Source: Enterobacter phage Tyrion. From it: 41,760 nt of DNA. The stretch lies in the sequence record KX231829.1, one strand, 5' to 3'. Under the pieces are notes generated by a model. That model was not told the DNA's origin, searched no databases, and worked only from the letters and a program-made list of their open reading frames with translations. A program made the translations under genes and the position numbers. Position 1 is the first letter of the stretch, and every line of letters begins with the position of its first letter. This document shows positions 20,397-39,921 of this stretch, piece by piece.

Positions 20397-20420
20397 CTTT
20401 CGCGGCCTTATTCTTATCAG
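20397..20420. terminator. Bidirectional Rho-independent terminator
   Basis: GGCCGC-tttc-GCGGCC followed by ttattctt on the plus strand. U-rich on the minus strand after the adjacent palindrome. Confidence 0.55.
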
Positions 20421-21130
20421 AACCCACCAGCCTGGCTGTTGATGTACTGCGCGTGCGTCTGGATGTCGCGCAGGCATTTACTGGCACCTACGATGTAGCT
20501 GATCATCGTGGTGAACTCCGCCGCCGCGCCGGATACGTCGTGGCCGTCGTCCTGCATCTGGTTCAGCAGGTTCATCAGCAGTGAGCGATCCGCCAGCCCA
20601 ACAACACCTTCCGGCGAGTGAATCATGTCGCGGTAGCCGGGTTTGAGTGGGGCGCTGTAGTTCTTCTGTTCAATCTGCATGGCCTGCATAACTGCTGATG
20701 CTGTGGCATTGGCAACCTGATCAGCAACCATCTTAATGCGGTCTTCTTGCGGGAGCGTATTTTTGATGTAACTACCGGTGCGGCGGATCTGCGGCAGCAC
20801 TTCGCCAGTTACCCATTTACGGAAACGGTAGGGAATAGTCCCAGGTGTTACTGCATCGCGGCAGCGCAGGATCAGAGTATAGAGGCCGGATTCGTTTATG
20901 ACATTAACGGTCTGACTACCTTTTACGGTGTAAGTTGAACTTACACCCTTCTCATCATCATCTAATGCTTTCAACGACATGCGGGAGTTAGTCAACCCAA
21001 GAGCTTTGCAAACGTCTGATGCAGCAAACCATGGATTACCATCAATGTTGAACATGCGAACAGGTGTGGATGATTCGAACTTAAATACTGCGTCTGGAGA
21101 TGGTTTTCTTTGAGTTGTCATAGTGATCAC
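20417..21130 (-). CDS. ant: Bro-N domain antirepressor-like protein (Ant)
   Basis: 237 aa. N-terminal Bro-N signature FNIDGNPWFAASDVCKALGL...LDDDEK. The C-terminal approximately 70 aa is paralogous to the product of 21439..21699. Confidence 0.75.
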   Translation of the reverse strand: MITMTTQRKPSPDAVFKFESSTPVRMFNIDGNPWFAASDVCKALGLTNSRMSLKALDDDEKGVSSTYTVKGSQTVNVINESGLYTLILRCRDAVTPGTIPYRFRKWVTGEVLPQIRRTGSYIKNTLPQEDRIKMVADQVANATASAVMQAMQIEQKNYSAPLKPGYRDMIHSPEGVVGLADRSLLMNLLNQMQDDGHDVSGAAAEFTTMISYIVGASKCLRDIQTHAQYINSQAGGF

Positions 21131-24493: not shown

Positions 24494-26368
24494 TTACTTA
24501 CTCATAATTTCAGATATTTTATTAAATATATATTTACCAACAATCTCAGACCCATATTTTGTGAGGTGAATTTTGTCAGAATAAATTGGCTCACCATCAG
24601 GGCTTTGCACAATGCAACTTTTTGCGTCACATAAAGCGTCATTAGGGTTAATGAAATATACACCTTTAGTTTTGCTTGCCCATTCTTCTAATATTCTATT
24701 TTCAATTATTTCATTTTTTTCTTCCCTTGCAGGGCATTCAAGCTTTAAAATCGTATTTATAGGAAGCGGATTTTTAGCAAGACATTCAAAAACCTGATAT
24801 TCAGTGCCTTGTGTCTTTCCAATTACAAATAGCTTTCTACCTTTGGTTGATCTAAAGGCATCCGAATTAACAATGTTGGTTAATTCATTTATGACAATAT
24901 TTGCATTATTGTCAACAACTTCTTCACCAGTTGCAATATTTTTAAACTTCCAGTCACTACTCCATATTTGAGCGTAGAGCACGTATTTTGATTTATATTT
25001 TATGAGCGATTTATTGAAGTGCCCAGACCTATCTATACATGCCTTGGCAATTTTGTCTGAAAAAAATCTAACGTAATTATTTGTTGATATACACCCATCC
25101 TGGAATACTGCTGCAAAAGGCTTTCCATATTCTTTCAAAAAAGTAGAATACTGTCTTGCAAAACTATCACCAGTTATAATGAACTCAGGCTCGTTATTGT
25201 TTATGTTAAATAGCTGAATGCCGTTTCCTTGAGGTGTTCCAGAGCCTCCATAGTACTTTGCATGAAACTCTTTTGCTGACAGTCCGAATTTTTCATCGAC
25301 CCTGGATTTAATCCCGTCTTCACTGACATAATAAGATGCATAAAGAGCAATGAAAAACATACAGCAAAGTCCAATGCCGTAACTTCTTCTCTTTTCAACT
25401 GTATAGTAGAGTATTATTGAAATTGCCAAAACAATATACAAATAAGTTAAAAAACCAACATCAATATTAAATTTACCTAATGTGACAATGACAGGCCAGT
25501 GTACAAGGTAAATCGAGTAAGACCATAGACCAGCTTTTTGAAGAATAATATTTGAAAGTATTGAGTTTTTATTATTTGCAAGAATAACAAAGTATGCGCC
25601 AACCACAGGTAGCAATGCAGCATAACCAGGCCACGGAGTTTTATCGCTGATTAGAGCAATGGATGCAACAATGAGCGCGATACCAGCGATTTCAATCTTA
25701 CCGGAATGCTCTTTGTGCCGAGTGAGAGGGTACAGGAACGCGAGGCCACCAACCATCATCTCCCACGCCCTAGTATAAAGCATAAAGTACGCTGCTGACG
25801 GGTCTGTGTATGAAACATAAACAGAAAGCAACAAAGAAACTATCGCTGCGATTACAACGGCTATCTTTATTTTTGATAAAGGCAATATTTTTGATAAAGC
25901 ATAAATAATGATAGGGTAAATAATATAAAACTGCCACTCTACAGATAACGACCACGTGTGCAGTAAAAATTTACTTCTTGAATCTGCATCAAAATAACCA
26001 GACTCAAAAAAATAAGTAAAATTAGAAATGAATAATAAACTACTAAATGAATGATTACCTATGACCTGATAGGTCAATGGCTCAAAAATTAAATATCCAA
26101 CTATAAGAAGCGCAACCACAACAGCAACTAGCGCAGGAACTATTCTTTTGCATCTTGCAATCAGGAATTTAACAATTGAAAAGTTGTTATTTTCTACACC
26201 TCTGAATATTATTGATGTCATCAAAAAACCTGAGATAACGAAAAAAACATCAACTCCAGCAAAACCACCCGGTAAAAAAGATGGGCTAAAATGGAATACC
26301 ATAACGGATAAGACCGCAATTGCACGAAGACCATTAATATCTTTTCTGAATTTATTATCAACGCCCAT
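24494..26368 (-). CDS. oac: O-antigen acetyltransferase (acyltransferase-3 membrane domain plus SGNH domain, OafA/Oac-like), lysogenic conversion
   Basis: 624 aa. N-term NGLRAIAVLSVMVFHF with about 10 TM helices. C-terminal SGNH-like domain. Very low GC. Same position as the O-acetyltransferase of phiV10. Confidence 0.85.
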   Translation of the reverse strand: MGVDNKFRKDINGLRAIAVLSVMVFHFSPSFLPGGFAGVDVFFVISGFLMTSIIFRGVENNNFSIVKFLIARCKRIVPALVAVVVALLIVGYLIFEPLTYQVIGNHSFSSLLFISNFTYFFESGYFDADSRSKFLLHTWSLSVEWQFYIIYPIIIYALSKILPLSKIKIAVVIAAIVSLLLSVYVSYTDPSAAYFMLYTRAWEMMVGGLAFLYPLTRHKEHSGKIEIAGIALIVASIALISDKTPWPGYAALLPVVGAYFVILANNKNSILSNIILQKAGLWSYSIYLVHWPVIVTLGKFNIDVGFLTYLYIVLAISIILYYTVEKRRSYGIGLCCMFFIALYASYYVSEDGIKSRVDEKFGLSAKEFHAKYYGGSGTPQGNGIQLFNINNNEPEFIITGDSFARQYSTFLKEYGKPFAAVFQDGCISTNNYVRFFSDKIAKACIDRSGHFNKSLIKYKSKYVLYAQIWSSDWKFKNIATGEEVVDNNANIVINELTNIVNSDAFRSTKGRKLFVIGKTQGTEYQVFECLAKNPLPINTILKLECPAREEKNEIIENRILEEWASKTKGVYFINPNDALCDAKSCIVQSPDGEPIYSDKIHLTKYGSEIVGKYIFNKISEIMSK

Positions 26369-28624: not shown

Positions 28625-29875
28625 GTGCTTACCGATACCAAACTGAAAAACCTGAAGCCTCAGGACAAACTCTATAAAGTTTCTGACCGTGACGGGCTGT
28701 ACGTAGCCGTGCTCATATCAGGCTCTGTCTCGTTCCGCTATGACTACAGAATCAACGGCCGCCGGGAAACTCTGGTGATTGGTCAGTATGGTCGTGACGG
28801 TATCAGCCTGGCGGAAGCGCGGGAAGAACTCATTGCGGCTAAAAAGTTGCTCAAGTCAGGCCAGTCGCCTGCTGCGGCAAAGCGTGACGGTATCAAAAAG
28901 ATCCGTGGCGCTGAGACATTCGCGGTACATACCGACAGCTATATGAAGCACGTCATTCTGGCTGACAGCACCCGCGCCATGAAGCAGGCAGTGATCGACC
29001 GTGACATACTTCCTGTGCTTGGCAACAAGATGATGGCGGAGATCACCACATCGATGGTGCGCGATCTGTGCGACAGGATTGTAGAGCGTGGCGGCCGTGC
29101 GACGGCAGTACAGACCAGGGAGATTATCAGCAGCGTATACCGTCACGCTAATGACCGTGGGCACGGTCTGTTTAACCCGGCAGCAGACATAAAGCCGTCG
29201 TCAATTGCCATGTTCAAGCCGCGAGAACGTTGCCTGCAACCAGAAGAGATTGGAATTTTCTTCCGCACACTCGATACCGTCGCGGCTATGGCAACGATGA
29301 AGCTGGCAACTAAACTGGTGCTGCTGACGATGGTCAGAAAAAATGAATTCATCAATGCCACCTGGAAAGAAATCGACTTCAAAAAATGGACATGGACTAT
29401 TCCGTCAAAAAGGATGAAGGGAAGCCGGGCGCACGTTATCTACCTGCCAAAGCAGGCGCAGGATCTGATGGTTGGCCTGCAGATGTGTGCTGGTGGAAGC
29501 GAGTACCTTTTGCCCGGGCGCTATTCAGTGAGCAAGCCGTTATCCAATGCAGCGCTAAACCGTCTGATCACCACCACAGTGGAATCAGCACAGTCGGCAG
29601 GATGCAACCTTGAACACTTCGCTGTACACGACCTGCGCCGCACTGCCAGCACGCTGTTGCATGAAGCTGGCTATCCATCAGACTGGATTGAAAAGGCGCT
29701 GGCGCATGAACAGAAGGGCGTGCGTGCGGTGTACAACAAAGCGGAGTACGCCAGGCAGCGCGCCTACATGTTGCAGCAGTGGGCGAATATGGTTGATTGC
29801 TGGATTAACGGGGAGCACACCGATCTGGTGCCGTTCTCCCCGTCGAAGTTTGAGAAGTGGATGGAGGGGCAATAG
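28625..29875 (+). CDS. int: Tyrosine integrase, P4-type (N-terminal arm-binding domain plus catalytic domain)
   Basis: 416 aa, GTG start. N-term LTDTKLKNLKP..KLYKVSDRDGLYVAV..GS.SFRYDYR. C-term HDLRRT...HE...Y catalytic signature. Confidence 0.9.
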   Translation: MLTDTKLKNLKPQDKLYKVSDRDGLYVAVLISGSVSFRYDYRINGRRETLVIGQYGRDGISLAEAREELIAAKKLLKSGQSPAAAKRDGIKKIRGAETFAVHTDSYMKHVILADSTRAMKQAVIDRDILPVLGNKMMAEITTSMVRDLCDRIVERGGRATAVQTREIISSVYRHANDRGHGLFNPAADIKPSSIAMFKPRERCLQPEEIGIFFRTLDTVAAMATMKLATKLVLLTMVRKNEFINATWKEIDFKKWTWTIPSKRMKGSRAHVIYLPKQAQDLMVGLQMCAGGSEYLLPGRYSVSKPLSNAALNRLITTTVESAQSAGCNLEHFAVHDLRRTASTLLHEAGYPSDWIEKALAHEQKGVRAVYNKAEYARQRAYMLQQWANMVDCWINGEHTDLVPFSPSKFEKWMEGQ

Positions 29876-29879
29876 ATTA

Positions 29880-30086
29880 TTAACTTTCCTGAATCTTGTG
29901 AGATGTAGTTAAAATATTCCGCACCACCTCTATTCTTCCTTGCTCTTCCAGGGTGCGGATTGCTATTGCTGCATCCCTGATCGTAATTCTAAGGTGATCG
30001 CAAATTTCAATAGAACTCATATTTCTAGAATGCAGAAGATTAAAAATTGAATCCTGTATTTCTTTCCCACCATATACACGCTTCAT
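29880..30086 (-). CDS. Small winged-helix regulator, PapI/FaeA-like
   Basis: ORF 29880..30218. Likely start MKRVYGG at 30086, overlapping the methyltransferase stop. Paralogous to 30720..30947. Confidence 0.5.
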   Translation of the reverse strand: MKRVYGGKEIQDSIFNLLHSRNMSSIEICDHLRITIRDAAIAIRTLEEQGRIEVVRNILTTSHKIQES

Positions 30087-30730
30087 GCTGCACGCTCCCG
30101 GCCCTGGTTGTCTGTTGGTGATAGCGGAGCATTTGAGAATGCCTGCGCCATTCCTGCAACATCCAGCGCATAACCTGGATGAAGTTGCACCGCCGGACCG
30201 TCGCACTGGTTTCCCCAAACGTCGAAACCATGCGACGACTGGCGAGCGAACAATTCTATGCGCGGCACATCGCCCAACAGTTGCACCAGTTTTTCCCTGA
30301 TGATGTCTGGTTTGCGTGAGTTCTCCATGCGCGGCGCCGTGACGTGCTGGCAGATTGACGCATCCATGCGGGACGGTAGTTTCCCACGCACCGCAAACAG
30401 GCAGTCTTCGCTGTTCGCCCTGGTAAGATGGCCCATGCCGATCGCGCTGTTCCCCTTATGCTTATTCGTTTTATGCCAGGTGAATCCCTTCATGGTCATC
30501 AGTCGGAAGCCCCACGCCTCTACAACCTTCAGCGCTTCAACCGGCTGAGTTGGAACCCACCACATCGCCAGCAGGCAATCATCTGAAGCGAGATCCCATA
30601 CAGGCAGGCGGCAGATATCCAGCACGTTCATCACCGGATATTTGAACCCGGCGCCGCGGTCGCCGTCTGCTGCCTTGTCGCGATATGACCAGGGAGGATC
30701 AGCGTAGATGAGTGTGTATTTATTTGGCAT
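30083..30730 (-). CDS. N6-adenine DNA methyltransferase (MT-A70/Dam-phage family, DPPW motif), orphan
   Basis: 215 aa. N-term YTLIYADPPWSY. No restriction-endonuclease partner nearby. Confidence 0.85.
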   Translation of the reverse strand: MPNKYTLIYADPPWSYRDKAADGDRGAGFKYPVMNVLDICRLPVWDLASDDCLLAMWWVPTQPVEALKVVEAWGFRLMTMKGFTWHKTNKHKGNSAIGMGHLTRANSEDCLFAVRGKLPSRMDASICQHVTAPRMENSRKPDIIREKLVQLLGDVPRIELFARQSSHGFDVWGNQCDGPAVQLHPGYALDVAGMAQAFSNAPLSPTDNQGRERAA

Positions 30731-30947
30731 TCCTCATCTCCTTAATCTTTTTTATGGACTTGCTAAAGTTGTTCTTTTTGAATTCGATAAAACCACCTTT
30801 AATCAATTTTTTTATCGCCAAATCAACAACGTTTTGAGAAATTCCCAAGTTTTTGGAAATTTGTGCAGATGTTTTGTTAGGATTTTTTTTAAGGAAATCA
30901 AAAATACATGCCTGAGTATCGGCCCCCGCAATTGTATGTTTTGTCAT
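30720..30947 (-). CDS. Small winged-helix regulator, PapI/FaeA-like (AT-rich)
   Basis: 75 aa. IFDFLKKNPNKTSAQISKNLGISQNVVDLAIKKLIKGGFIEF aligns with the 29880..30086 product. Lys-rich, low-GC codon usage. Confidence 0.55.
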   Translation of the reverse strand: MTKHTIAGADTQACIFDFLKKNPNKTSAQISKNLGISQNVVDLAIKKLIKGGFIEFKKNNFSKSIKKIKEMRNAK

Positions 30948-31119
30948 ATCACACCAGCCTTAATTGGACGAACCTTAAGCGATTCATTCAATTTCTCAGC
31001 AACTCGTTGTGCTGCTATGGGGTTGTTAATAATCAACTTTGCAGGAGTTAACCAGCCTCTGTGTTTAACAGAGTAAATAAGAGTTACCTTACCGACGGTG
31101 ATATTGTCGTGAGGATTAG
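30943..31119 (-). CDS. Hypothetical 58-aa protein (not in ORF track)
   Basis: Minus-strand ATG at 31119 overlapping the upstream stop (TATGACTAA). Its own stop overlaps the ATG of the 75-aa gene (ATGA), so it is translationally coupled in the operon. Confidence 0.4.
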
Positions 31120-31505
31120 TCATAGATCACCCCACGGCTGAGTATTCCACTGTAATCACCACAGCGCAGGCCATTACTTTTCGTGATGCACTGGTCACGA
31201 CGAACGGCGATCTTGTGCCGCTCAACTTCACCCTTCGCTGCATCCATACACAGGAGCCATAGACGAGCAGCAACGCGAAAGTGACCTTTTTTCTCTCTTG
31301 CGATAGCGCGCTTCTCGATCTCCATCGCCGCCGGTGTCACCGCGATTACTTTTGAGACTTCGCTTTTTGACACATGGTCAAGATGGTACTTCTGCAATTT
31401 CGTTAACTTTGGCTTATTCATTTGATCCAGCCTTCTCTGAAAATAACCGCCAGCAGGTAAAGCCAGGCGGAAATTGAGGTCAGGTATAAGTACCATCCTG
31501 ACCAC
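31116..31505 (-). CDS. Hypothetical protein (first gene of leftward methyltransferase operon)
   Basis: 129 aa ORF. An alternative start is MNKPK at 31421. Confidence 0.5.
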   Translation of the reverse strand: MVRMVLIPDLNFRLALPAGGYFQRRLDQMNKPKLTKLQKYHLDHVSKSEVSKVIAVTPAAMEIEKRAIAREKKGHFRVAARLWLLCMDAAKGEVERHKIAVRRDQCITKSNGLRCGDYSGILSRGVIYD

Positions 31506-31530
31506 TTATTCCAGTGCCTGATCAGCGCTG

Positions 31531-31779
31531 TCATGCTGCGCTACTCACTGGACGATAAACACGCTGATCAACCGGCGGTTTTTTCCCCTGGAATTGAGCA
31601 GGGCTTTGAGCCTGTCGCTCATCCAGCCATCGCTCGACTTCATCCTGATTCCAGGCGCAACGTTTATCAGTTATATACCAGCGCTTTGGAAATTCTCCGG
31701 CGCGCTCCATACGATCGATCGTGCTCCATGACAATGGCACCACCGCCAGGAGTTCCTTCTTGCCTAATGCACCTTTCAT
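31531..31779 (-). CDS. AlpA/Xis-like DNA-binding protein (excisionase candidate)
   Basis: 82 aa. LSWSTIDRMERAGEFPKR is an AlpA-family HTH. Confidence 0.65.
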   Translation of the reverse strand: MKGALGKKELLAVVPLSWSTIDRMERAGEFPKRWYITDKRCAWNQDEVERWLDERQAQSPAQFQGKKPPVDQRVYRPVSSAA

Positions 31780-34176: not shown

Positions 34177-34283
34177 ATTTATTACCTCGGTTTGTTACCG
34201 TTGAGGTAATAATTATCCATATATGGTTTGCAGTCAATAGATATGAGTGTAAAAAATTACCTGTGGGGTAATTGTCAGGTAAT
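34177..34283. promoter_or_regulatory. OL-like operator/promoter cluster
   Basis: TTACCTCGG..CCGTTGAGGTAAT, then GGTAAT-aattat-CCATATATGG (34205..34226). Perfect ATTACC-TGTGG-GGTAAT (34256..34272), AGGTAAT (34277..34283). Leftward sigma70-like TTGACT-17-AATTAT with CCATATATGG in the spacer. Confidence 0.55.
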
Positions 34284-34339: not shown

Positions 34340-34924
34340 TTATTCTGTTGTTTTTTTATTCTGACTGATAACGAATTCTATGTAGCTTTCTATCTTCTTT
34401 TTTTCTACGTCAGGTAACAATCCGTAACTTGGTCGGTCATATCTGATAGCTTCCGGATCATGAGGATGAATCAGCAATTCATAACCATGTCGACCGAACG
34501 CGGAGGCGATAGATTCGAGAGTTGAGATTGATACACTGACTTCGTTGTTCAGCATTCTGCTGACAGTGTTCTGAGAAATTCCGCTGGCGCGCTCGATCTT
34601 ACCTTGTGATGTCAGGTTATCGCTTTCTCTCATCCAGCGTTCAAGGTTATGGGCAGCAATGATACCAATATCAGTTGGTCCTACAGGTACAAAGCTATCA
34701 AGAGTCAGAGATCTGTCTATGTCCAGCCAGTTACGCGGTTTGTTTGCTGCTGCCTCAATCTTACGTGCAACCTGATCACCGATTATTTTCTTTCCAAGAA
34801 CCCAACGATTAACCAGGTTAGCCTGCGTGTTCATCCTTTCTGCAAGACGCGTCTGCACGCCGTTAAATTCGCGGTCTATTAGATCCTTGAGATTTTGTCT
34901 GCGTACGTCCTGGATACTTTTCAT
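34340..34924 (-). CDS. Prophage repressor, tandem HTH_XRE domains, no S24 peptidase domain
   Basis: 194 aa with two HTH regions (about 1-65 and about 105-160). No Ser/Lys autocleavage module. Divergent from the cro-like gene. Confidence 0.75.
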   Translation of the reverse strand: MKSIQDVRRQNLKDLIDREFNGVQTRLAERMNTQANLVNRWVLGKKIIGDQVARKIEAAANKPRNWLDIDRSLTLDSFVPVGPTDIGIIAAHNLERWMRESDNLTSQGKIERASGISQNTVSRMLNNEVSVSISTLESIASAFGRHGYELLIHPHDPEAIRYDRPSYGLLPDVEKKKIESYIEFVISQNKKTTE

Positions 34925-37865: not shown

Positions 37866-38438
37866 ATGGACAGCAATATCAGTGAGTTAGTGAAGTTAGG
37901 GCATGAGCGCGCGGCTGAACTGAAAGCATCATGCGGTGCTGTCGATGTGCGCAGCGTGGAGCAACTGATTAGCGATCTGGCATCGCAACTTGAAGTGCAG
38001 TATGTGCGTGCTGAAGAGTCACAGCGCGAGTTCCGCTCTGCTGATATCACAATGCAGAATCTGGAGGCTCAACTTAAGCAAAACAAGATTGACGCTGACT
38101 GCTACAAGAAGGGCATGGAAGCGTCAAATGCGCGGCTGGTTCAGATTGCTGCGGAGAATGCGGGGCTGAATGAGAAAATGAACAAACTCGCCACCTGGCC
38201 AGGCATTGAGTTCTATTCCTCAGCCTGGGAGTTCAACAACGGTGACGGCAATGACGCTCTTGAATTCATGTGTGATGTGCAAACCCCAGCGACCGACGCT
38301 TTCCTGGCTGAAGTGCGGGCGCAGGGTGTGGAGGGTATCTATCAATTTAACACGGATAAAATGGGCATTTATCTTGATGGCGATGTATGCGCGTTAATCG
38401 ATCACTACGCCGCCCAGTTAAGAAAGGAGCGAGGATAA
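37866..38438 (+). CDS. Hypothetical nin-region protein (coiled-coil N-terminus)
   Basis: 190 aa. Its stop overlaps the next ATG (TAATG). Confidence 0.5.
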   Translation: MDSNISELVKLGHERAAELKASCGAVDVRSVEQLISDLASQLEVQYVRAEESQREFRSADITMQNLEAQLKQNKIDADCYKKGMEASNARLVQIAAENAGLNEKMNKLATWPGIEFYSSAWEFNNGDGNDALEFMCDVQTPATDAFLAEVRAQGVEGIYQFNTDKMGIYLDGDVCALIDHYAAQLRKERG

Positions 38439-38962
38439 TGAAAAGACACTCTCCTCCTGACATCCAAGAACTAACATCATCGCTTGACTATGACCCATTA
38501 ACAGGAAAATTCACCTGGAAAAAGCAACGTGCATCAAATTGCGCAATCGGCAAGGAAGCTGGCTATATAACCGCTTATGGCTATAGGCAGATACATTTCA
38601 ACGGTAAGGCATACAAAGCGCATCGCCTTGCCTGGTTTATTACCTACGGAACATGGCCAGACCTGATTGACCATATCGATATGGATAGGGCAAATAACGC
38701 AATTTCCAATCTCCGCGAGGCTACCACCTCAGAGAATTCGCGAAATCAATCATTAAAAAGAAGAAATTCATCTGGCGTTCCATGTGTTTACTGGCACAGC
38801 ACCAGAAATAGATGGGTCGTAAAAGTGACGCGTGAAGGAAGGGAATATTACGGAGGAGCATTTACAAATTTTGATGATGCAAAGTTGGTATCCGAAAAAC
38901 TACGCAAAGAATTGCATGGTGAATTTTATCGTGAAGTCTCACGCAAAGGAGTGCAGTCATGA
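38438..38962 (+). CDS. HNH endonuclease with AP2-like DNA-binding domain (free-standing homing-endonuclease type)
   Basis: ORF 38387..38962. Start MKRHSPP with RBS AAGGAG. HNH motif HRLAWFITYG...DHIDMDRANNAISNLREAT..EN. The C-terminal region VYWHSTRNRWVVKV is AP2-like. AT-rich. Confidence 0.75.
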   Translation: MKRHSPPDIQELTSSLDYDPLTGKFTWKKQRASNCAIGKEAGYITAYGYRQIHFNGKAYKAHRLAWFITYGTWPDLIDHIDMDRANNAISNLREATTSENSRNQSLKRRNSSGVPCVYWHSTRNRWVVKVTREGREYYGGAFTNFDDAKLVSEKLRKELHGEFYREVSRKGVQS

Positions 38963-39921
38963 CCCCTAACGAAAAGCAAAAGCTTCTTCAGCGTCAGTCT
39001 CTTTCTCTCGATGCAAAGATTCAAATGACAAAGCGCCGAATCCGTGATTTCTACGATCACTTTGATGGAGAGGTTTACCAATCCTTCAGCGGCGGAAAAG
39101 ACAGCACTGTATTGCGTCACATCATCATGTCTATGGGATTAAAGATGCCATTTGTCTTTAGTAACACAGGTCTTGAGATGCCGGAGATTGTTGACTTCGT
39201 AAGAGCGCAGGCCAGCAAGGATGATGGTGTCGTTCAGGTTCGACCAAAGGTTCCGTTTAACCAGGTATGGCAGGAGTACGGGTTGCCAATTGGAAGTAAA
39301 AAGGTCGCAAAAATGATTCGCGTCCTCCAGGAGGGAGACACAGGTCGGAACAGCAACATGCACAATCTTTATAACACCGGAGTTAACTCGAAAGGCCAGT
39401 TCGCTAAATCATGGAAGATACCCGAGAAGTGGCGTGTATTCGTCAATGATGAAGCGCCGCGCATTACCGACTTATGCTGCGATTTTCTCAAAAAAGAGCC
39501 TCTGGACACTTATGCGAAGGAAACCGGTCGACACGGCATCAGCGCAATTATGGCTGACGAAGGGGGGGCACGTGAAATGCGTACTCAATGCAACGTTTAT
39601 GACGGCAAGCGTCCCAACTGTGCTCCCATGCTGTTCTGGCTTGAAAGCGATGTCTGGGAATACATAAACACCCGCGAAGTGGAAATTTGTGAAGTGTATT
39701 ACGACAGAGAGGTAAACGGTCGTCACGTCCCGGCAGAGAAAAGAACCGGCTGCATGTTCTGCGGATTTGGAGTTCACATGGAAAAAGGCATGAACCGCTT
39801 TCAGCGCATGGCCATTACGCATCCTCGCCAGCACTCTATCGTCATTGACCGCATGGGTATGGGTAAAGCTCTTGACCTGATAAACGTTAAATACATTCCG
39901 GATGATGAGGCCGCCCAATGA
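38959..39921 (+). CDS. PAPS-reductase-family PP-loop ATPase-like protein
   Basis: 320 aa. PP-loop motif SFSGGKDST near the N-terminus. A family recurrent in enterobacterial prophage nin regions. Confidence 0.75.
   Translation: MTPNEKQKLLQRQSLSLDAKIQMTKRRIRDFYDHFDGEVYQSFSGGKDSTVLRHIIMSMGLKMPFVFSNTGLEMPEIVDFVRAQASKDDGVVQVRPKVPFNQVWQEYGLPIGSKKVAKMIRVLQEGDTGRNSNMHNLYNTGVNSKGQFAKSWKIPEKWRVFVNDEAPRITDLCCDFLKKEPLDTYAKETGRHGISAIMADEGGAREMRTQCNVYDGKRPNCAPMLFWLESDVWEYINTREVEICEVYYDREVNGRHVPAEKRTGCMFCGFGVHMEKGMNRFQRMAITHPRQHSIVIDRMGMGKALDLINVKYIPDDEAAQ

What the first reader, a model, noticed from the sequence alone, without database searches (positions are those of the whole stretch)
29880..31505. Orphan adenine methyltransferase flanked by two paralogous PapI/FaeA-like winged-helix genes in a 5-gene coupled operon
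The leftward operon (129-aa, 58-aa, 75-aa wHTH, MT-A70/DPPW methyltransferase, 68-aa wHTH) uses overlapping stop/start codons throughout. The two small wHTH proteins are mutual paralogs (IFDFLKKNPNKTSAQISKNLGIS..VDLAIKKLIKGGFIEF versus IFNLLHSRNMSSIEICDHLRITIRDAAIAIRTLEEQGRIEV). Their pattern resembles PapI/FaeA, which cooperates with adenine methylation in epigenetic phase-variable switches. The 30720..31119 segment is markedly AT-rich, implying a recent insertion. This is a candidate phage-borne methylation-dependent regulatory module, or an anti-restriction self-methylation cassette with its own regulators. No cognate endonuclease is present.
Basis: inference. Interest (0 to 1): 0.6.

Follow-up and report, generated by a model that had tools for sequence, protein, structure and literature searches.

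The report
Phage methyltransferase flanked by twin winged-helix genes
At the far end of the early-left operon of an epsilon15-like temperate phage, a lone MT-A70 adenine methyltransferase sits between two small, AT-rich, distantly related winged-helix genes; these belong to a very rare unnamed family, are not PapI/FaeA relatives, and may be nucleic-acid-binding partners of the enzyme, as shown for a related Shiga-toxin phage enzyme.

Summary
The described sequence features are real. On the minus strand, seven genes are joined by overlapping stop/start codons: AlpA/Xis, a 38-aa ORF, PerC-like (101 aa, not 129), DUF1317, a 75-aa wHTH (w75), an MT-A70/DPPW methyltransferase, and a 68-aa ORF (o68). 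They form the distal end of the early-left operon of an epsilon15-like (Uetakevirus) phage, next to the integrase gene.

w75 is an HTH_24/MarR-type winged helix. o68 has no profile match but models as a canonical winged helix. The two are true distant paralogs (Smith-Waterman z 9-14, hhalign 96%, bridging homologs). Both are low-GC cassettes (32% and 38%, against 57% for the methyltransferase) that relatives lack or replace.

The PapI/FaeA reading fails: no PF04703 match, only generic fold similarity, and no fimbrial or local promoter context.

The methyltransferase core is 73% identical to Stx-phage M.EcoPA8orf6770P. That enzyme is published as binding an upstream wHTH protein (PNB-2) and methylating 16S rRNA. 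My best guess (about 0.4) is an analogous adaptor role for w75/o68. However, they are not PNB-2 homologs, and the coupling junctions are shared by many unrelated cassettes.

Verdict: a new variant of a known kind, of moderate interest.

The parts
29880..30086 (-). o68: 68-aa small winged-helix protein of an unnamed 'MKRxYGG' family. Its ATG overlaps the methyltransferase stop codon (ATGA). 38% GC.
   Evidence: ORF and sequence. No family hit. Model pLDDT 76.5 with H1-H2-H3-wing. Foldseek matches to MarR/IclR/ArsR folds at TM 0.74-0.80. dN/dS 0.33-0.51. In every context examined it lies immediately 3' of an MT-A70 gene.
30083..30730 (-). Orphan MT-A70 family N6-adenine methyltransferase, 215 aa, with DPPW at residues 11-14. 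It is the conserved core of the module. 57% GC.
   Evidence: PF05063 at 88.3 bits, full length. phrog_359 at 1e-115. PADLOC MTase_II. About 90% identical in Uetakevirus relatives and 73% (136/187) identical to Stx phage PA8 gp5. dN/dS 0.04-0.13.
30720..30947 (-). w75: 75-aa basic (pI 10.2) winged-helix protein, a paralog of o68. Its 3' end carries the Shine-Dalgarno sequence and ATG of the methyltransferase gene (11-nt overlap). 32% GC cassette.
   Evidence: HTH_24 at 27.2 bits against a cutoff of 21.9, plus MarR_2. Model with three confident helices. Absent in ET846, epsilon15 and SPN1S. dN/dS 0.07-0.31. pI.
30944..31123 (-). DUF1317 protein, 59 aa. A small gene of the kind found between the recombination and integrase genes of lambdoid phages. 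41% GC.
   Evidence: PF07026 at 70 bits. phrog_1998.
31116..31421 (-). PerC-family putative transcriptional activator, 101 aa from ATG 31421.
   Evidence: PF06069 at 28.3 bits. phrog_868 aligns residues 33-129 to profile positions 3-99. epsilon15 gp31 is 99 aa. The ATG overlaps the stop of the 38-aa ORF.
31418..31534 (-). 38-aa hydrophobic ORF, equivalent to the epsilon15 gp32 'membrane protein'. It is coupled by ATGA overlaps on both sides.
31531..31779 (-). AlpA-family excisionase/regulator, 82 aa. It is the first gene of the overlapping block.
   Evidence: PF05930 at 24.8 bits. phrog_66.
28625..29875 (+). Tyrosine integrase, convergent with the operon. Its stop codon lies 4 nt from the o68 stop codon.
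   Evidence: Homologous loci carry integrase Pfam domains and lie next to guaA.
34209..34237 (-). PL-like sigma-70 promoter candidate downstream of the cI-like repressor gene (34340-34924). It is the only predicted leftward promoter upstream of the module.
   Evidence: Consensus scan only; the number of promoter-like sites is not above the shuffled expectation. Repressor ORF.

Best explanation
Shown. The window is an epsilon15-like (Uetakevirus) temperate phage in phage gene order. Positions 29880-31779 are the integrase-proximal end of its early-left operon (recombination genes, AlpA/Xis, then small accessory genes). The conserved element is a minimal 215-aa MT-A70/DPPW adenine methyltransferase with no restriction partner. 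It is about 90% identical across guaA-integrated prophages of Citrobacter, E. coli, Klebsiella and Raoultella. Its core is 73% identical to the Stx-phage enzyme M.EcoPA8orf6770P (REBASE relative M.EcoGV). Both boundaries of the methyltransferase gene are recombination-prone coupling junctions, usually ...GCNGCATGA. Different phages carry different cassettes there. In this phage both slots hold low-GC members of one tiny, unnamed winged-helix family: w75 on the 5' side and o68 on the 3' side.

Inferred mechanism. On induction or infection the operon is read leftward from the repressor-controlled promoter. Translational coupling then makes w75, the methyltransferase and o68 together. The small single-domain winged-helix proteins act as nucleic-acid-binding adaptor subunits. 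They bind the methyltransferase, which has no target-recognition domain, and set or bias its substrate. That substrate could be phage or host DNA (self-protection from restriction, GATC-like sites) or host 16S rRNA. This is the role PNB-2 plays for the Stx-phage enzyme.
For: - Phage identity and operon layout.
- Methyltransferase family and motif. It has no relative among solved bacterial enzymes; the closest solved chains are eukaryotic MT-A70 complexes, which work with partner subunits (PMC7544214).
- Precedent: PMC10810198 reports that the gene just upstream of the Stx-phage MT-A70, PNB-2, has a predicted winged HTH, overlaps the methyltransferase start, co-purifies 1:1 with the enzyme and directs it to 16S rRNA.
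- The PA8 locus has the same architecture. The window's methyltransferase core is 73% identical to the PA8 enzyme.
- The w75/o68 family comprises about 25 clusters at 90% identity among 5.8 billion proteins and occurs on one IMG/VR contig out of 2.9 million.
- In all 13 or more contexts read, the gene abuts an MT-A70 gene, whatever lies on the other side. Either paralog can occur without the other (L005 and L009).
- Both genes are under purifying selection.
- Other occupants of the same slots are also nucleic-acid or modification proteins: DGQHR, ASCH, a second methyltransferase, other wHTH and HTH proteins.
Against: - No interaction was tested, and no multimer model could be run.
- w75 and o68 show no similarity to PNB-2 (Smith-Waterman z 1.5 and -1.2; hhalign 6%).
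- Most relatives of this methyltransferase have no wHTH neighbour at all (ET846, epsilon15, most IMG/VR loci). The enzyme therefore probably works alone.
- Translational coupling is not specific to the wHTH genes. In 64 of 72 loci the methyltransferase start lies in an ATGA, and in 60 of 72 its stop does, with unrelated neighbours such as DUF1317, DUF1382, PerC and a coiled-coil protein.
- All family members come from one phage lineage and one locus. The strict adjacency could therefore reflect junction-restricted cassette exchange rather than function.
- The substrate of the precedent enzyme is itself disputed. [quoted passage not shown] The PNB-2 complex is reported to act on 16S rRNA.
Confidence: 0.4

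Rival explanations
1. The two winged-helix genes are independent accessory cassettes, for example DNA-binding regulators of host or phage genes, exclusion factors or anti-defence factors. They sit beside the methyltransferase only because its two boundaries are the junctions where cassettes are swapped in this phage lineage. The methyltransferase works alone as an anti-restriction or Dam-like enzyme.
For: - The slots on both sides of the methyltransferase hold many unrelated genes in relatives: DUF1317, DUF1382, PerC, DGQHR, ASCH, a coiled-coil 59-mer, a membrane protein and a phosphatase-like ORF.
- The conserved ...GCNGCATGA junctions are shared by all of them.
- w75 has moved between methyltransferase backgrounds: dS 0.15-0.18 against 0.76.
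- Most methyltransferase orthologs lack any wHTH neighbour.
- w75 is a basic MarR/AsnC-type wHTH, typical of DNA-binding regulators.
Against: - The family has never been seen anywhere except abutting this methyltransferase, even though the gene on the far side varies.
- The proteins are single-domain, 57-75 aa, with no evident dimerisation module. Some members lack the wing.
- There is no local promoter or operator for them to act on.
- The close Stx-phage homolog of the methyltransferase does use an adjacent wHTH subunit.
Confidence: 0.35
2. This is an anti-restriction self-methylation cassette in which the wHTH proteins regulate transcription of the methyltransferase gene, like the controller (C) proteins or HTH autoregulators of restriction-modification methyltransferases.
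For: - The enzyme is an orphan phage methyltransferase in an early operon.
- Its relative M.EcoGV is listed as GATC-specific on DNA (PMC6602927).
- wHTH folds are typical of repressors.
Against: - There is no intergenic space. All junctions overlap by 4-11 nt.
- No promoter-like site is predicted on the minus strand between about 34237 and 29880, so there is nothing local to control.
- C proteins are Xre-type HTH proteins with C-box operators, not wHTH proteins.
- GATC is not depleted in the phage: 188 sites against about 163 expected.
Confidence: 0.1
3. One reading: w75 and o68 are PapI/FaeA-like co-regulators that cooperate with adenine methylation in an epigenetic phase-variable switch.
For: - They are small standalone winged-helix proteins of PapI-like size next to an adenine methyltransferase.
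- They show weak generic similarity to PapI (Smith-Waterman z 4-5; hhalign 55% for the w75 family).
Against: - No PF04703 match at E<=1.
- 2htj is absent from the PDB profile hits at E<=10 and from the Foldseek top 50.
- hhalign of the o68 family against PapI gives 8.6%.
- The context is a phage lytic operon, not a fimbrial switch with paired GATC/Lrp sites.
- The genes are probably silent in lysogens, where a heritable switch would have to operate (inferred from the operon position).
Confidence: 0.03

Closest known systems
M.EcoPA8orf6770P-PNB-2 holoenzyme of Stx2 phage PA8 (PMC10810198); REBASE relative M.EcoGV
   Same: - The catalytic subunit is the same subfamily of short MT-A70/DPPW enzymes: 136 of 187 core residues are identical.
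- It lies at the integrase-proximal end of a leftward phage operon.
- A winged-helix gene sits immediately upstream and overlaps the methyltransferase start.
- Further small genes, including another wHTH (128 aa, TrmB-like plus DUF1627), lie downstream.
   Different: - The partner proteins are unrelated in sequence. PNB-2 is about 118-143 aa with a basic C-terminal tail; w75 and o68 are 68-75 aa and belong to a different family.
- Here there are two paralogous wHTH genes, one on each side of the methyltransferase.
- The C-terminal tails of the methyltransferases differ.
- No biochemical data exist for this phage.
Orphan 'adenine methylase' of epsilon15-like phages (epsilon15 gp29, SPN1S_0032, E. 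coli guaA prophages)
   Same: These are orthologous enzymes, about 90% identical, at the same position between the PerC/DUF1317 genes and the integrase gene.
   Different: These relatives lack w75 and o68. Their slots are empty or hold DGQHR, a 35-aa ORF, a coiled-coil 59-mer or a membrane protein.
PapI/FaeA family (PF04703; PapI structure 2htj)
   Same: It is a small standalone winged-helix protein of about 70-77 aa, and its known role is linked to adenine methylation (established knowledge).
   Different: - No profile match, and only fold-level similarity.
- PapI works with Lrp and host Dam at fimbrial promoters. Neither that context nor any local regulatory DNA is present here.
Eukaryotic MT-A70 complexes (METTL3-METTL14; ciliate MTA1-MTA9 with the p1 and p2 DNA-binding subunits)
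   Same: Both use an MT-A70 catalytic domain that needs separate nucleic-acid-binding partners (PMC7544214). These are the closest solved structures by sequence.
   Different: The eukaryotic enzymes are heterodimers of two MT-A70 paralogs, with homeobox-like or CCCH-type binding modules. Here there is a single methyltransferase gene with wHTH neighbours, and the partnership is only inferred.

Membership tests
MT-A70 methyltransferase (PF05063) | Full-length match to the family profile above Pfam's gathering score | tested here: met
   88.3 bits against a cutoff of 23.9; residues 5-175 align to profile positions 1-172 of 172.
MT-A70 methyltransferase (PF05063) | Catalytic motif IV, DPPW | tested here: met
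   DPPW at residues 11-14, invariant in all 8 aligned orthologs.
MT-A70 methyltransferase (PF05063) | SAM-dependent N6-adenine methylation, and the identity of the substrate | not testable with these tools
   This requires a methylome or an enzyme assay. Published relatives are assigned either GATC on DNA or 16S rRNA.
Winged helix-turn-helix (HTH_24/MarR clan) | Profile match or H1-H2-H3-wing topology (w75) | tested here: met
   HTH_24 at 27.2 bits against a cutoff of 21.9. The model has three confident helices; the wing and tail are of low confidence.
Winged helix-turn-helix (HTH_24/MarR clan) | Profile match or H1-H2-H3-wing topology (o68) | tested here: met
   No profile exceeds its cutoff. 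The model (pLDDT 76.5) shows H8-20, H25-32, H36-48 and a beta hairpin at 52-61. Foldseek gives TM 0.74-0.80 to ZitR, IclR and CadC. o68 is homologous to w75. This rests on a predicted structure built from a shallow alignment.
PapI/FaeA (PF04703) | Match to the family profile | tested here: not met
   PF04703 is not listed for either protein at E<=1.
PapI/FaeA (PF04703) | Specific similarity to PapI (2htj) beyond the generic wHTH fold | tested here: not met
   The PapI sequence was verified against 2htj_A. 2htj does not appear in the PDB profile searches at E<=10 or in the Foldseek top 50. hhalign gives 55% and 8.6%, against 96% between w75 and o68.
PapI/FaeA (PF04703) | Location in a fimbrial regulatory region with paired GATC/Lrp sites | tested here: not met
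   The genes are embedded, with overlapping codons, in a phage early-left operon. There are no fimbrial genes and no intergenic DNA.
Two-subunit phage MT-A70 holoenzyme (M.EcoPA8orf6770P-PNB-2 type) | Catalytic subunit orthologous to M.EcoPA8orf6770P | tested here: met
   136 of 187 residues identical (73%) over the core.
Two-subunit phage MT-A70 holoenzyme (M.EcoPA8orf6770P-PNB-2 type) | wHTH gene immediately upstream, co-transcribed, overlapping the methyltransferase start | tested here: met
   w75 overlaps the methyltransferase gene by 11 nt and carries its Shine-Dalgarno sequence. In PA8, gp6 and gp5 overlap by 4 nt. Caveat: such overlaps are generic at this junction.
Two-subunit phage MT-A70 holoenzyme (M.EcoPA8orf6770P-PNB-2 type) | Partner homologous to PNB-2 | tested here: not met
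   Smith-Waterman z of 1.5 (w75) and -1.2 (o68). hhalign of the w75 family against PNB-2 gives 6%.
Two-subunit phage MT-A70 holoenzyme (M.EcoPA8orf6770P-PNB-2 type) | Physical 1:1 complex and partner-dependent substrate (16S rRNA) | not testable with these tools
   This needs co-purification and activity assays. No multimer prediction was available.
Type II restriction-modification system | Cognate restriction endonuclease gene adjacent to the methyltransferase | tested here: not met
   The neighbours are wHTH, DUF1317, PerC and integrase genes. The only nuclease-like genes in the window are the recombination exonuclease, RuvC and an HNH_3 gene 8 kb away in the rightward region.

The most novel reading that the evidence does not exclude
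w75 and o68 define a new family of tiny winged-helix adaptor subunits. They dock onto a phage MT-A70 enzyme that lacks a target-recognition domain and retarget it, for example between phage DNA and host 16S rRNA. The two paralogs would give alternative or combined holoenzymes. The conserved ATGA junctions would let phages swap such specificity modules as cassettes, a modular 'plug-in specificity' system for an orphan methyltransferase.
Probability: 0.2. Interest if true: 0.65.

Novelty: new variant of a known kind. Interest (0 to 1): 0.4.

Why it matters
Short MT-A70 methyltransferases are common in enterobacterial prophages. Their targets are disputed: GATC on DNA, or 16S rRNA with a partner protein. 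In one Stx phage the enzyme-partner pair alters prophage induction and virulence.

This locus offers a natural comparison. The same enzyme core occurs with no partner, with a 5' wHTH, with a 3' wHTH, or with both. It is a compact test bed for whether small nucleic-acid-binding proteins set the substrate of bacterial MT-A70 enzymes, as they do in eukaryotes.

If the wHTH genes turn out to be unrelated to the enzyme, the region still documents how translationally coupled cassettes are shuffled at conserved stop/start junctions.

Tried and rejected
- BLASTP of w75 against o68 found nothing. Smith-Waterman with shuffles, hhalign and bridging homologs show this was a seeding failure, not an absence of similarity.
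- tblastn of both small proteins against 50,697 phage records found no match.
- The scan of GTDB species-representative genomes returned only an ordinary 152-aa AsnC/Lrp regulator from Algibacter. It is not a family member. Its high Smith-Waterman z against w75 (11.3) belongs to a hit selected from 596 Gb, so I did not use it as a control.
- M.EcoGII, the non-specific prophage adenine methyltransferase, was considered as the closest known enzyme and rejected. It is a 349-aa DPPY beta-class enzyme.
- I looked for a link between the methyltransferase C-terminal tail (215-aa against 197-aa forms) and the presence of w75 or o68, as suggested for PNB-2. There is none: both tail types occur with and without each partner.
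- A Z-alpha (Z-DNA binding) reading was prompted by Foldseek hits. By eye I do not see the Asn/Tyr pair that, from memory, marks the Z-alpha recognition helix in helix 3, so I did not pursue it.
- The PADLOC hits of w75 to CasR/Csa3/CARF C-terminal domains are generic wHTH matches.
- A quantitative test of HTH enrichment next to MT-A70 genes was planned but dropped. The tools return only family counts for batch scans, and no fair baseline could be built. The list of HTH neighbours is therefore anecdotal.
- The profile search of 1.84 billion representative proteins also returned long repetitive proteins (P0011-P0013, P0015, P0022). These are multi-stretch matches to repeats, not relatives.
Full report
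WHAT IS THERE

The window is an epsilon15-like (Uetakevirus) temperate phage in phage gene order, with the terminase gene at the left and the lysis genes, attP and integrase in the middle. The region 29800-31800 matches Salmonella phages SPN1S and epsilon15 and E. coli prophages at 81-87% over the methyltransferase, PerC and AlpA genes, but not over the two small genes. Annotated relatives share the order RecE-like exonuclease, RecT, AlpA/Xis, small membrane ORF, PerC-like, DUF1317, methyltransferase, small ORF, then a convergent integrase. In bacterial genomes the prophage sits next to guaA.

On the minus strand of the window the genes are:
- AlpA, 31779-31531
- a 38-aa ORF, 31534-31418
- PerC-like, 31421-31116
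- DUF1317, 31123-30944
- w75, 30947-30720
- MT-A70, 30730-30083
- o68, 30086-29880

Successive genes overlap by 4, 4, 8, 4, 11 and 4 nt.

The PHROG alignment starts at residue 33, epsilon15 gp31 is 99 aa, and the ATG at 31421 overlaps the stop of the 38-aa ORF. The block is therefore seven coupled genes, not five. It is the distal part of a longer leftward operon that follows a cI-like repressor gene and a PL-like site near 34237. No other leftward promoter-like site is predicted down to 29880. This is a simple consensus scan and should be treated as weak evidence.

THE THREE CORE PROTEINS

The methyltransferase is a full-length MT-A70 domain (88 bits against a cutoff of 24) with DPPW at residues 11-14. 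Its closest solved relatives are eukaryotic MT-A70 enzymes: ciliate MT-A70 family proteins and METTL3.

w75 passes the HTH_24 threshold and hits MarR-type profiles. It is basic, with pI 10.2.

o68 has no match in Pfam, PHROGs, NCBIfam or PADLOC. Its AlphaFold model (pLDDT 76.5) is a textbook winged helix: three helices and a beta hairpin. Foldseek superposes it on MarR, IclR and ArsR domains at TM 0.74-0.80. The w75 model has three confident helices and a disordered tail, and it also finds only generic wHTH and Z-alpha-type folds.

ARE THE TWO SMALL PROTEINS PARALOGS?

Yes.
- BLASTP found nothing. A Smith-Waterman alignment runs end to end with score 60, z = 9.2, reached by 0 of 5000 shuffles.
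- hhalign of the two family alignments gives 96% probability and 31% identity over 59 columns.
- Intermediate sequences tie the two together. P0014 scores z = 12 against w75 and z = 18 against o68. P0004, the E. coli member of the w75 subfamily, scores z = 14 against o68.
- A joint alignment has 11 invariant columns, including an N-terminal K-x4-G-x3-Q motif that lies outside the HTH.
- By contrast, similarity to PapI, to PNB-2 and to other phage wHTH proteins is at background wHTH level, z from -1 to 5.

CASSETTES

Both small genes are low-GC: w75 32% and o68 38%, with DUF1317 at 41%. The methyltransferase is 57% and the window 51%.

A DNA alignment of six loci shows that the methyltransferase core is conserved from its fourth codon to about codon 185:
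- The 5' slot is empty in E. coli ET846, where DUF1317 abuts the methyltransferase.
- It holds w75 in the window, L005, L006 and L007.
- It holds a 160-aa methyltransferase-like ORF plus a w75 homolog in L004.
- It holds a DGQHR (DndB/ParB-like) protein in SPN1S.
- The 3' slot holds o68-type genes, a coiled-coil 59-mer, a membrane protein, or nothing.

Low GC (31-39%) is shared by all family members even at 48% identity, so it is a stable trait and not a sign of recency. The w75 cassette has nevertheless been exchanged more recently than the methyltransferase it abuts: dS 0.15-0.18 against 0.76.

Both genes are under purifying selection: dN/dS 0.07-0.31 for w75, 0.33-0.51 for o68, and 0.04-0.13 for the methyltransferase.

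HOW RARE IS THE FAMILY, AND WHERE IS IT FOUND?

Searches of 5.8 billion proteins found about 25 clusters at 90% identity, all from Citrobacter, E. coli, Klebsiella and Raoultella. An exhaustive HMMER pass over 1.84 billion representatives added only two real small relatives and one 35-aa fragment. The family is absent from 50,697 phage records and from GTDB species representatives. It is present on a single IMG/VR contig.

Every context I read, 13 or more distinct ones, is a guaA-adjacent epsilon15-like prophage in which the gene abuts the MT-A70 gene:
- o68-type genes always lie 3' of it with an ATGA overlap.
- w75-type genes always lie 5' of it.
- The gene on the other side of the methyltransferase varies: DUF1317, DUF1382, PerC, or ORFs of 182-212 aa.
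- What follows also varies: the integrase gene or DUF7740.
- Either paralog can occur alone: L005 has only w75, and L009 and many others have only the o68 type.
- Some Klebsiella and Raoultella members are 57 aa and end before the wing.

TESTING THE PAPI/FAEA INTERPRETATION

- PF04703 is not reported for either protein even at E<=1.
- I verified my recalled PapI sequence against PDB entry 2htj. That entry does not appear in profile searches of the PDB at E<=10 or in the Foldseek top 50.
- hhalign gives 55% (w75 family) and 8.6% (o68 family).
- The context is wrong as well. There is no fimbrial operon and no intergenic regulatory DNA, and the genes lie in an operon that should be repressed in lysogens.

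The resemblance is the generic one among small winged helices.

A BETTER PRECEDENT

A literature search turned up PMC10810198. In Stx2 phage PA8 the MT-A70/DPPW enzyme M.EcoPA8orf6770P (gp5) lies near the integrase gene. The gene just upstream, PNB-2, has a predicted winged HTH. It co-purifies and cross-links 1:1 with the enzyme and directs it to 16S rRNA. The enzyme alone is weakly active on DNA.

A table in PMC6602927 whose footnote limits specificities to PacBio-determined ones lists the close relative M.EcoGV as GATC-specific. [quoted passage not shown]

I fetched the PA8 locus. The order is PNB-2, the methyltransferase (4-nt overlap), a DUF1382 protein, then a 128-aa wHTH+DUF1627 protein. 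The window's methyltransferase is 73% identical to PA8 gp5 over 187 residues. The catalytic subunit and the architecture therefore match. However, w75 and o68 are not PNB-2 homologs.

HOW SPECIFIC IS THE ASSOCIATION?

I retrieved 80 IMG/VR loci encoding relatives of this methyltransferase and read the ORFs on each side. The neighbours are very diverse:
- DUF1317, DUF1382, PerC and NinB
- replication proteins and even ribonucleotide reductase
- several nucleic-acid or modification proteins: DGQHR, ASCH and a second methyltransferase
- other HTH proteins: a MarR/IclR-like 88-mer coupled 3' of the methyltransferase in L059, a wHTH-like 101-mer 5' of it in L071, and Sigma70_r4-like HTH proteins in L017, L087 and L090

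I could not build a fair baseline, so this list is suggestive only.

The stop/start coupling is generic. Among 72 loci at 75% identity or more, the methyltransferase start lies in an ATGA in 64 and its stop in 60, usually within ...GCNGCATGA preceded by GGAG or GGTGG. Coupling therefore cannot be used as evidence that w75 or o68 in particular are subunits. The shared junctions also offer a purely mechanical reason why a cassette family would be confined to the two flanks of this gene.

VERDICT ON MECHANISM

Shown:
- an orphan MT-A70 enzyme in the early-left operon of an epsilon15-like phage
- two paralogous, selected, low-GC winged-helix cassettes of a rare unnamed family, one on each side
- no restriction partner, and no PapI/FaeA membership

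Inferred:
- Expression occurs only on induction or infection, from the repressor-controlled promoter.
- The small wHTH proteins serve as nucleic-acid-binding adaptors of the methyltransferase, by analogy with PNB-2 and with eukaryotic MT-A70 complexes. I put this at about 0.4.
- The main rival is that they are independent regulators or accessory genes parked at a cassette junction, at about 0.35.
- A C-protein-like control role is unlikely, at about 0.1, for lack of any local promoter.
- The PapI-type switch is very unlikely.

NOVELTY AND INTEREST

The methyltransferase is an ordinary member of a widespread prophage family. The wHTH family is unannotated and very rare. The double-flanked arrangement is a new variant of the recently described 'MT-A70 plus wHTH partner' theme.

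Interest is moderate at 0.4. Natural variants with zero, one or two partners make a clean experimental system for a live question: what do bacterial and phage MT-A70 enzymes methylate, and who tells them? Nothing here is shown to be mechanistically new.

Noticed in passing
window 30083-30086 and 30727-30730; loci L003-L108: Both ends of the methyltransferase gene are conserved coupling junctions, usually GGAG or GGTGG followed by GCNGCATGA. Among 72 loci at 75% identity or more, the methyltransferase start lies in an ATGA in 64 and its stop in 60, although the neighbouring genes are unrelated. The junctions look like the microhomologies at which cassettes are swapped while translational coupling is kept.
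   Followed up: partly
L002 3342-4337 (SPN1S); L014 2522-3004 and L004 4522-5004; L030 and L035 2351-3004: The slot just upstream of the methyltransferase holds other nucleic-acid or modification proteins in relatives. These are a DGQHR (DndB/ParB-like) protein, a 160-aa second methyltransferase-like ORF (weak Methyltransf_11/25 hits, DPPH motif) and an ASCH-domain protein. This hints that the slot collects modification-related cargo.
   Followed up: partly
L010 (phage PA8) 1634-2020: In the Stx phage a second winged-helix protein (128 aa, TrmB-like N-terminus plus DUF1627) lies two genes downstream of the MT-A70 gene. A wHTH gene on both sides of the enzyme is therefore not unique to this window. 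It is not homologous to o68.
   Followed up: partly
P0028, P0030, P0034 (57 aa); loci L099-L102: Klebsiella and Raoultella members of the o68 subfamily end at ...RIEEVTK, before the second wing strand. They are nevertheless conserved and found on many contigs (P0028 is indexed in 44 blocks of the collection, of which 24 contigs were read). A full wing is therefore apparently not required.
   Followed up: no
window 24494-26368 (-): A 624-aa acyltransferase-3 plus SGNH fusion on the opposite strand, between the tail and lysis genes. It is probably an O-antigen acetyltransferase for serotype conversion, as known for epsilon15-type phages.
   Followed up: no
window 37866-39921 (+): A run of three genes: an unassigned 190-aa ORF, an HNH_3 endonuclease (38387-38962) and a PAPS-reductase-like protein (38959-39921). 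In L089 a PAPS-reductase-like ORF (judged from its sequence, not scanned against Pfam) lies directly upstream of an MT-A70 gene. This may be a second nucleic-acid-modification module.
   Followed up: no
It swallows the reading frame region of a separate, conserved 38-aa hydrophobic ORF (31418-31534), equivalent to epsilon15 gp32.
   Followed up: yes
window 20417-21130 (-): A Bro-N domain protein is encoded on the minus strand inside the otherwise rightward structural and tail gene block. It is probably another inserted accessory gene.
   Followed up: no
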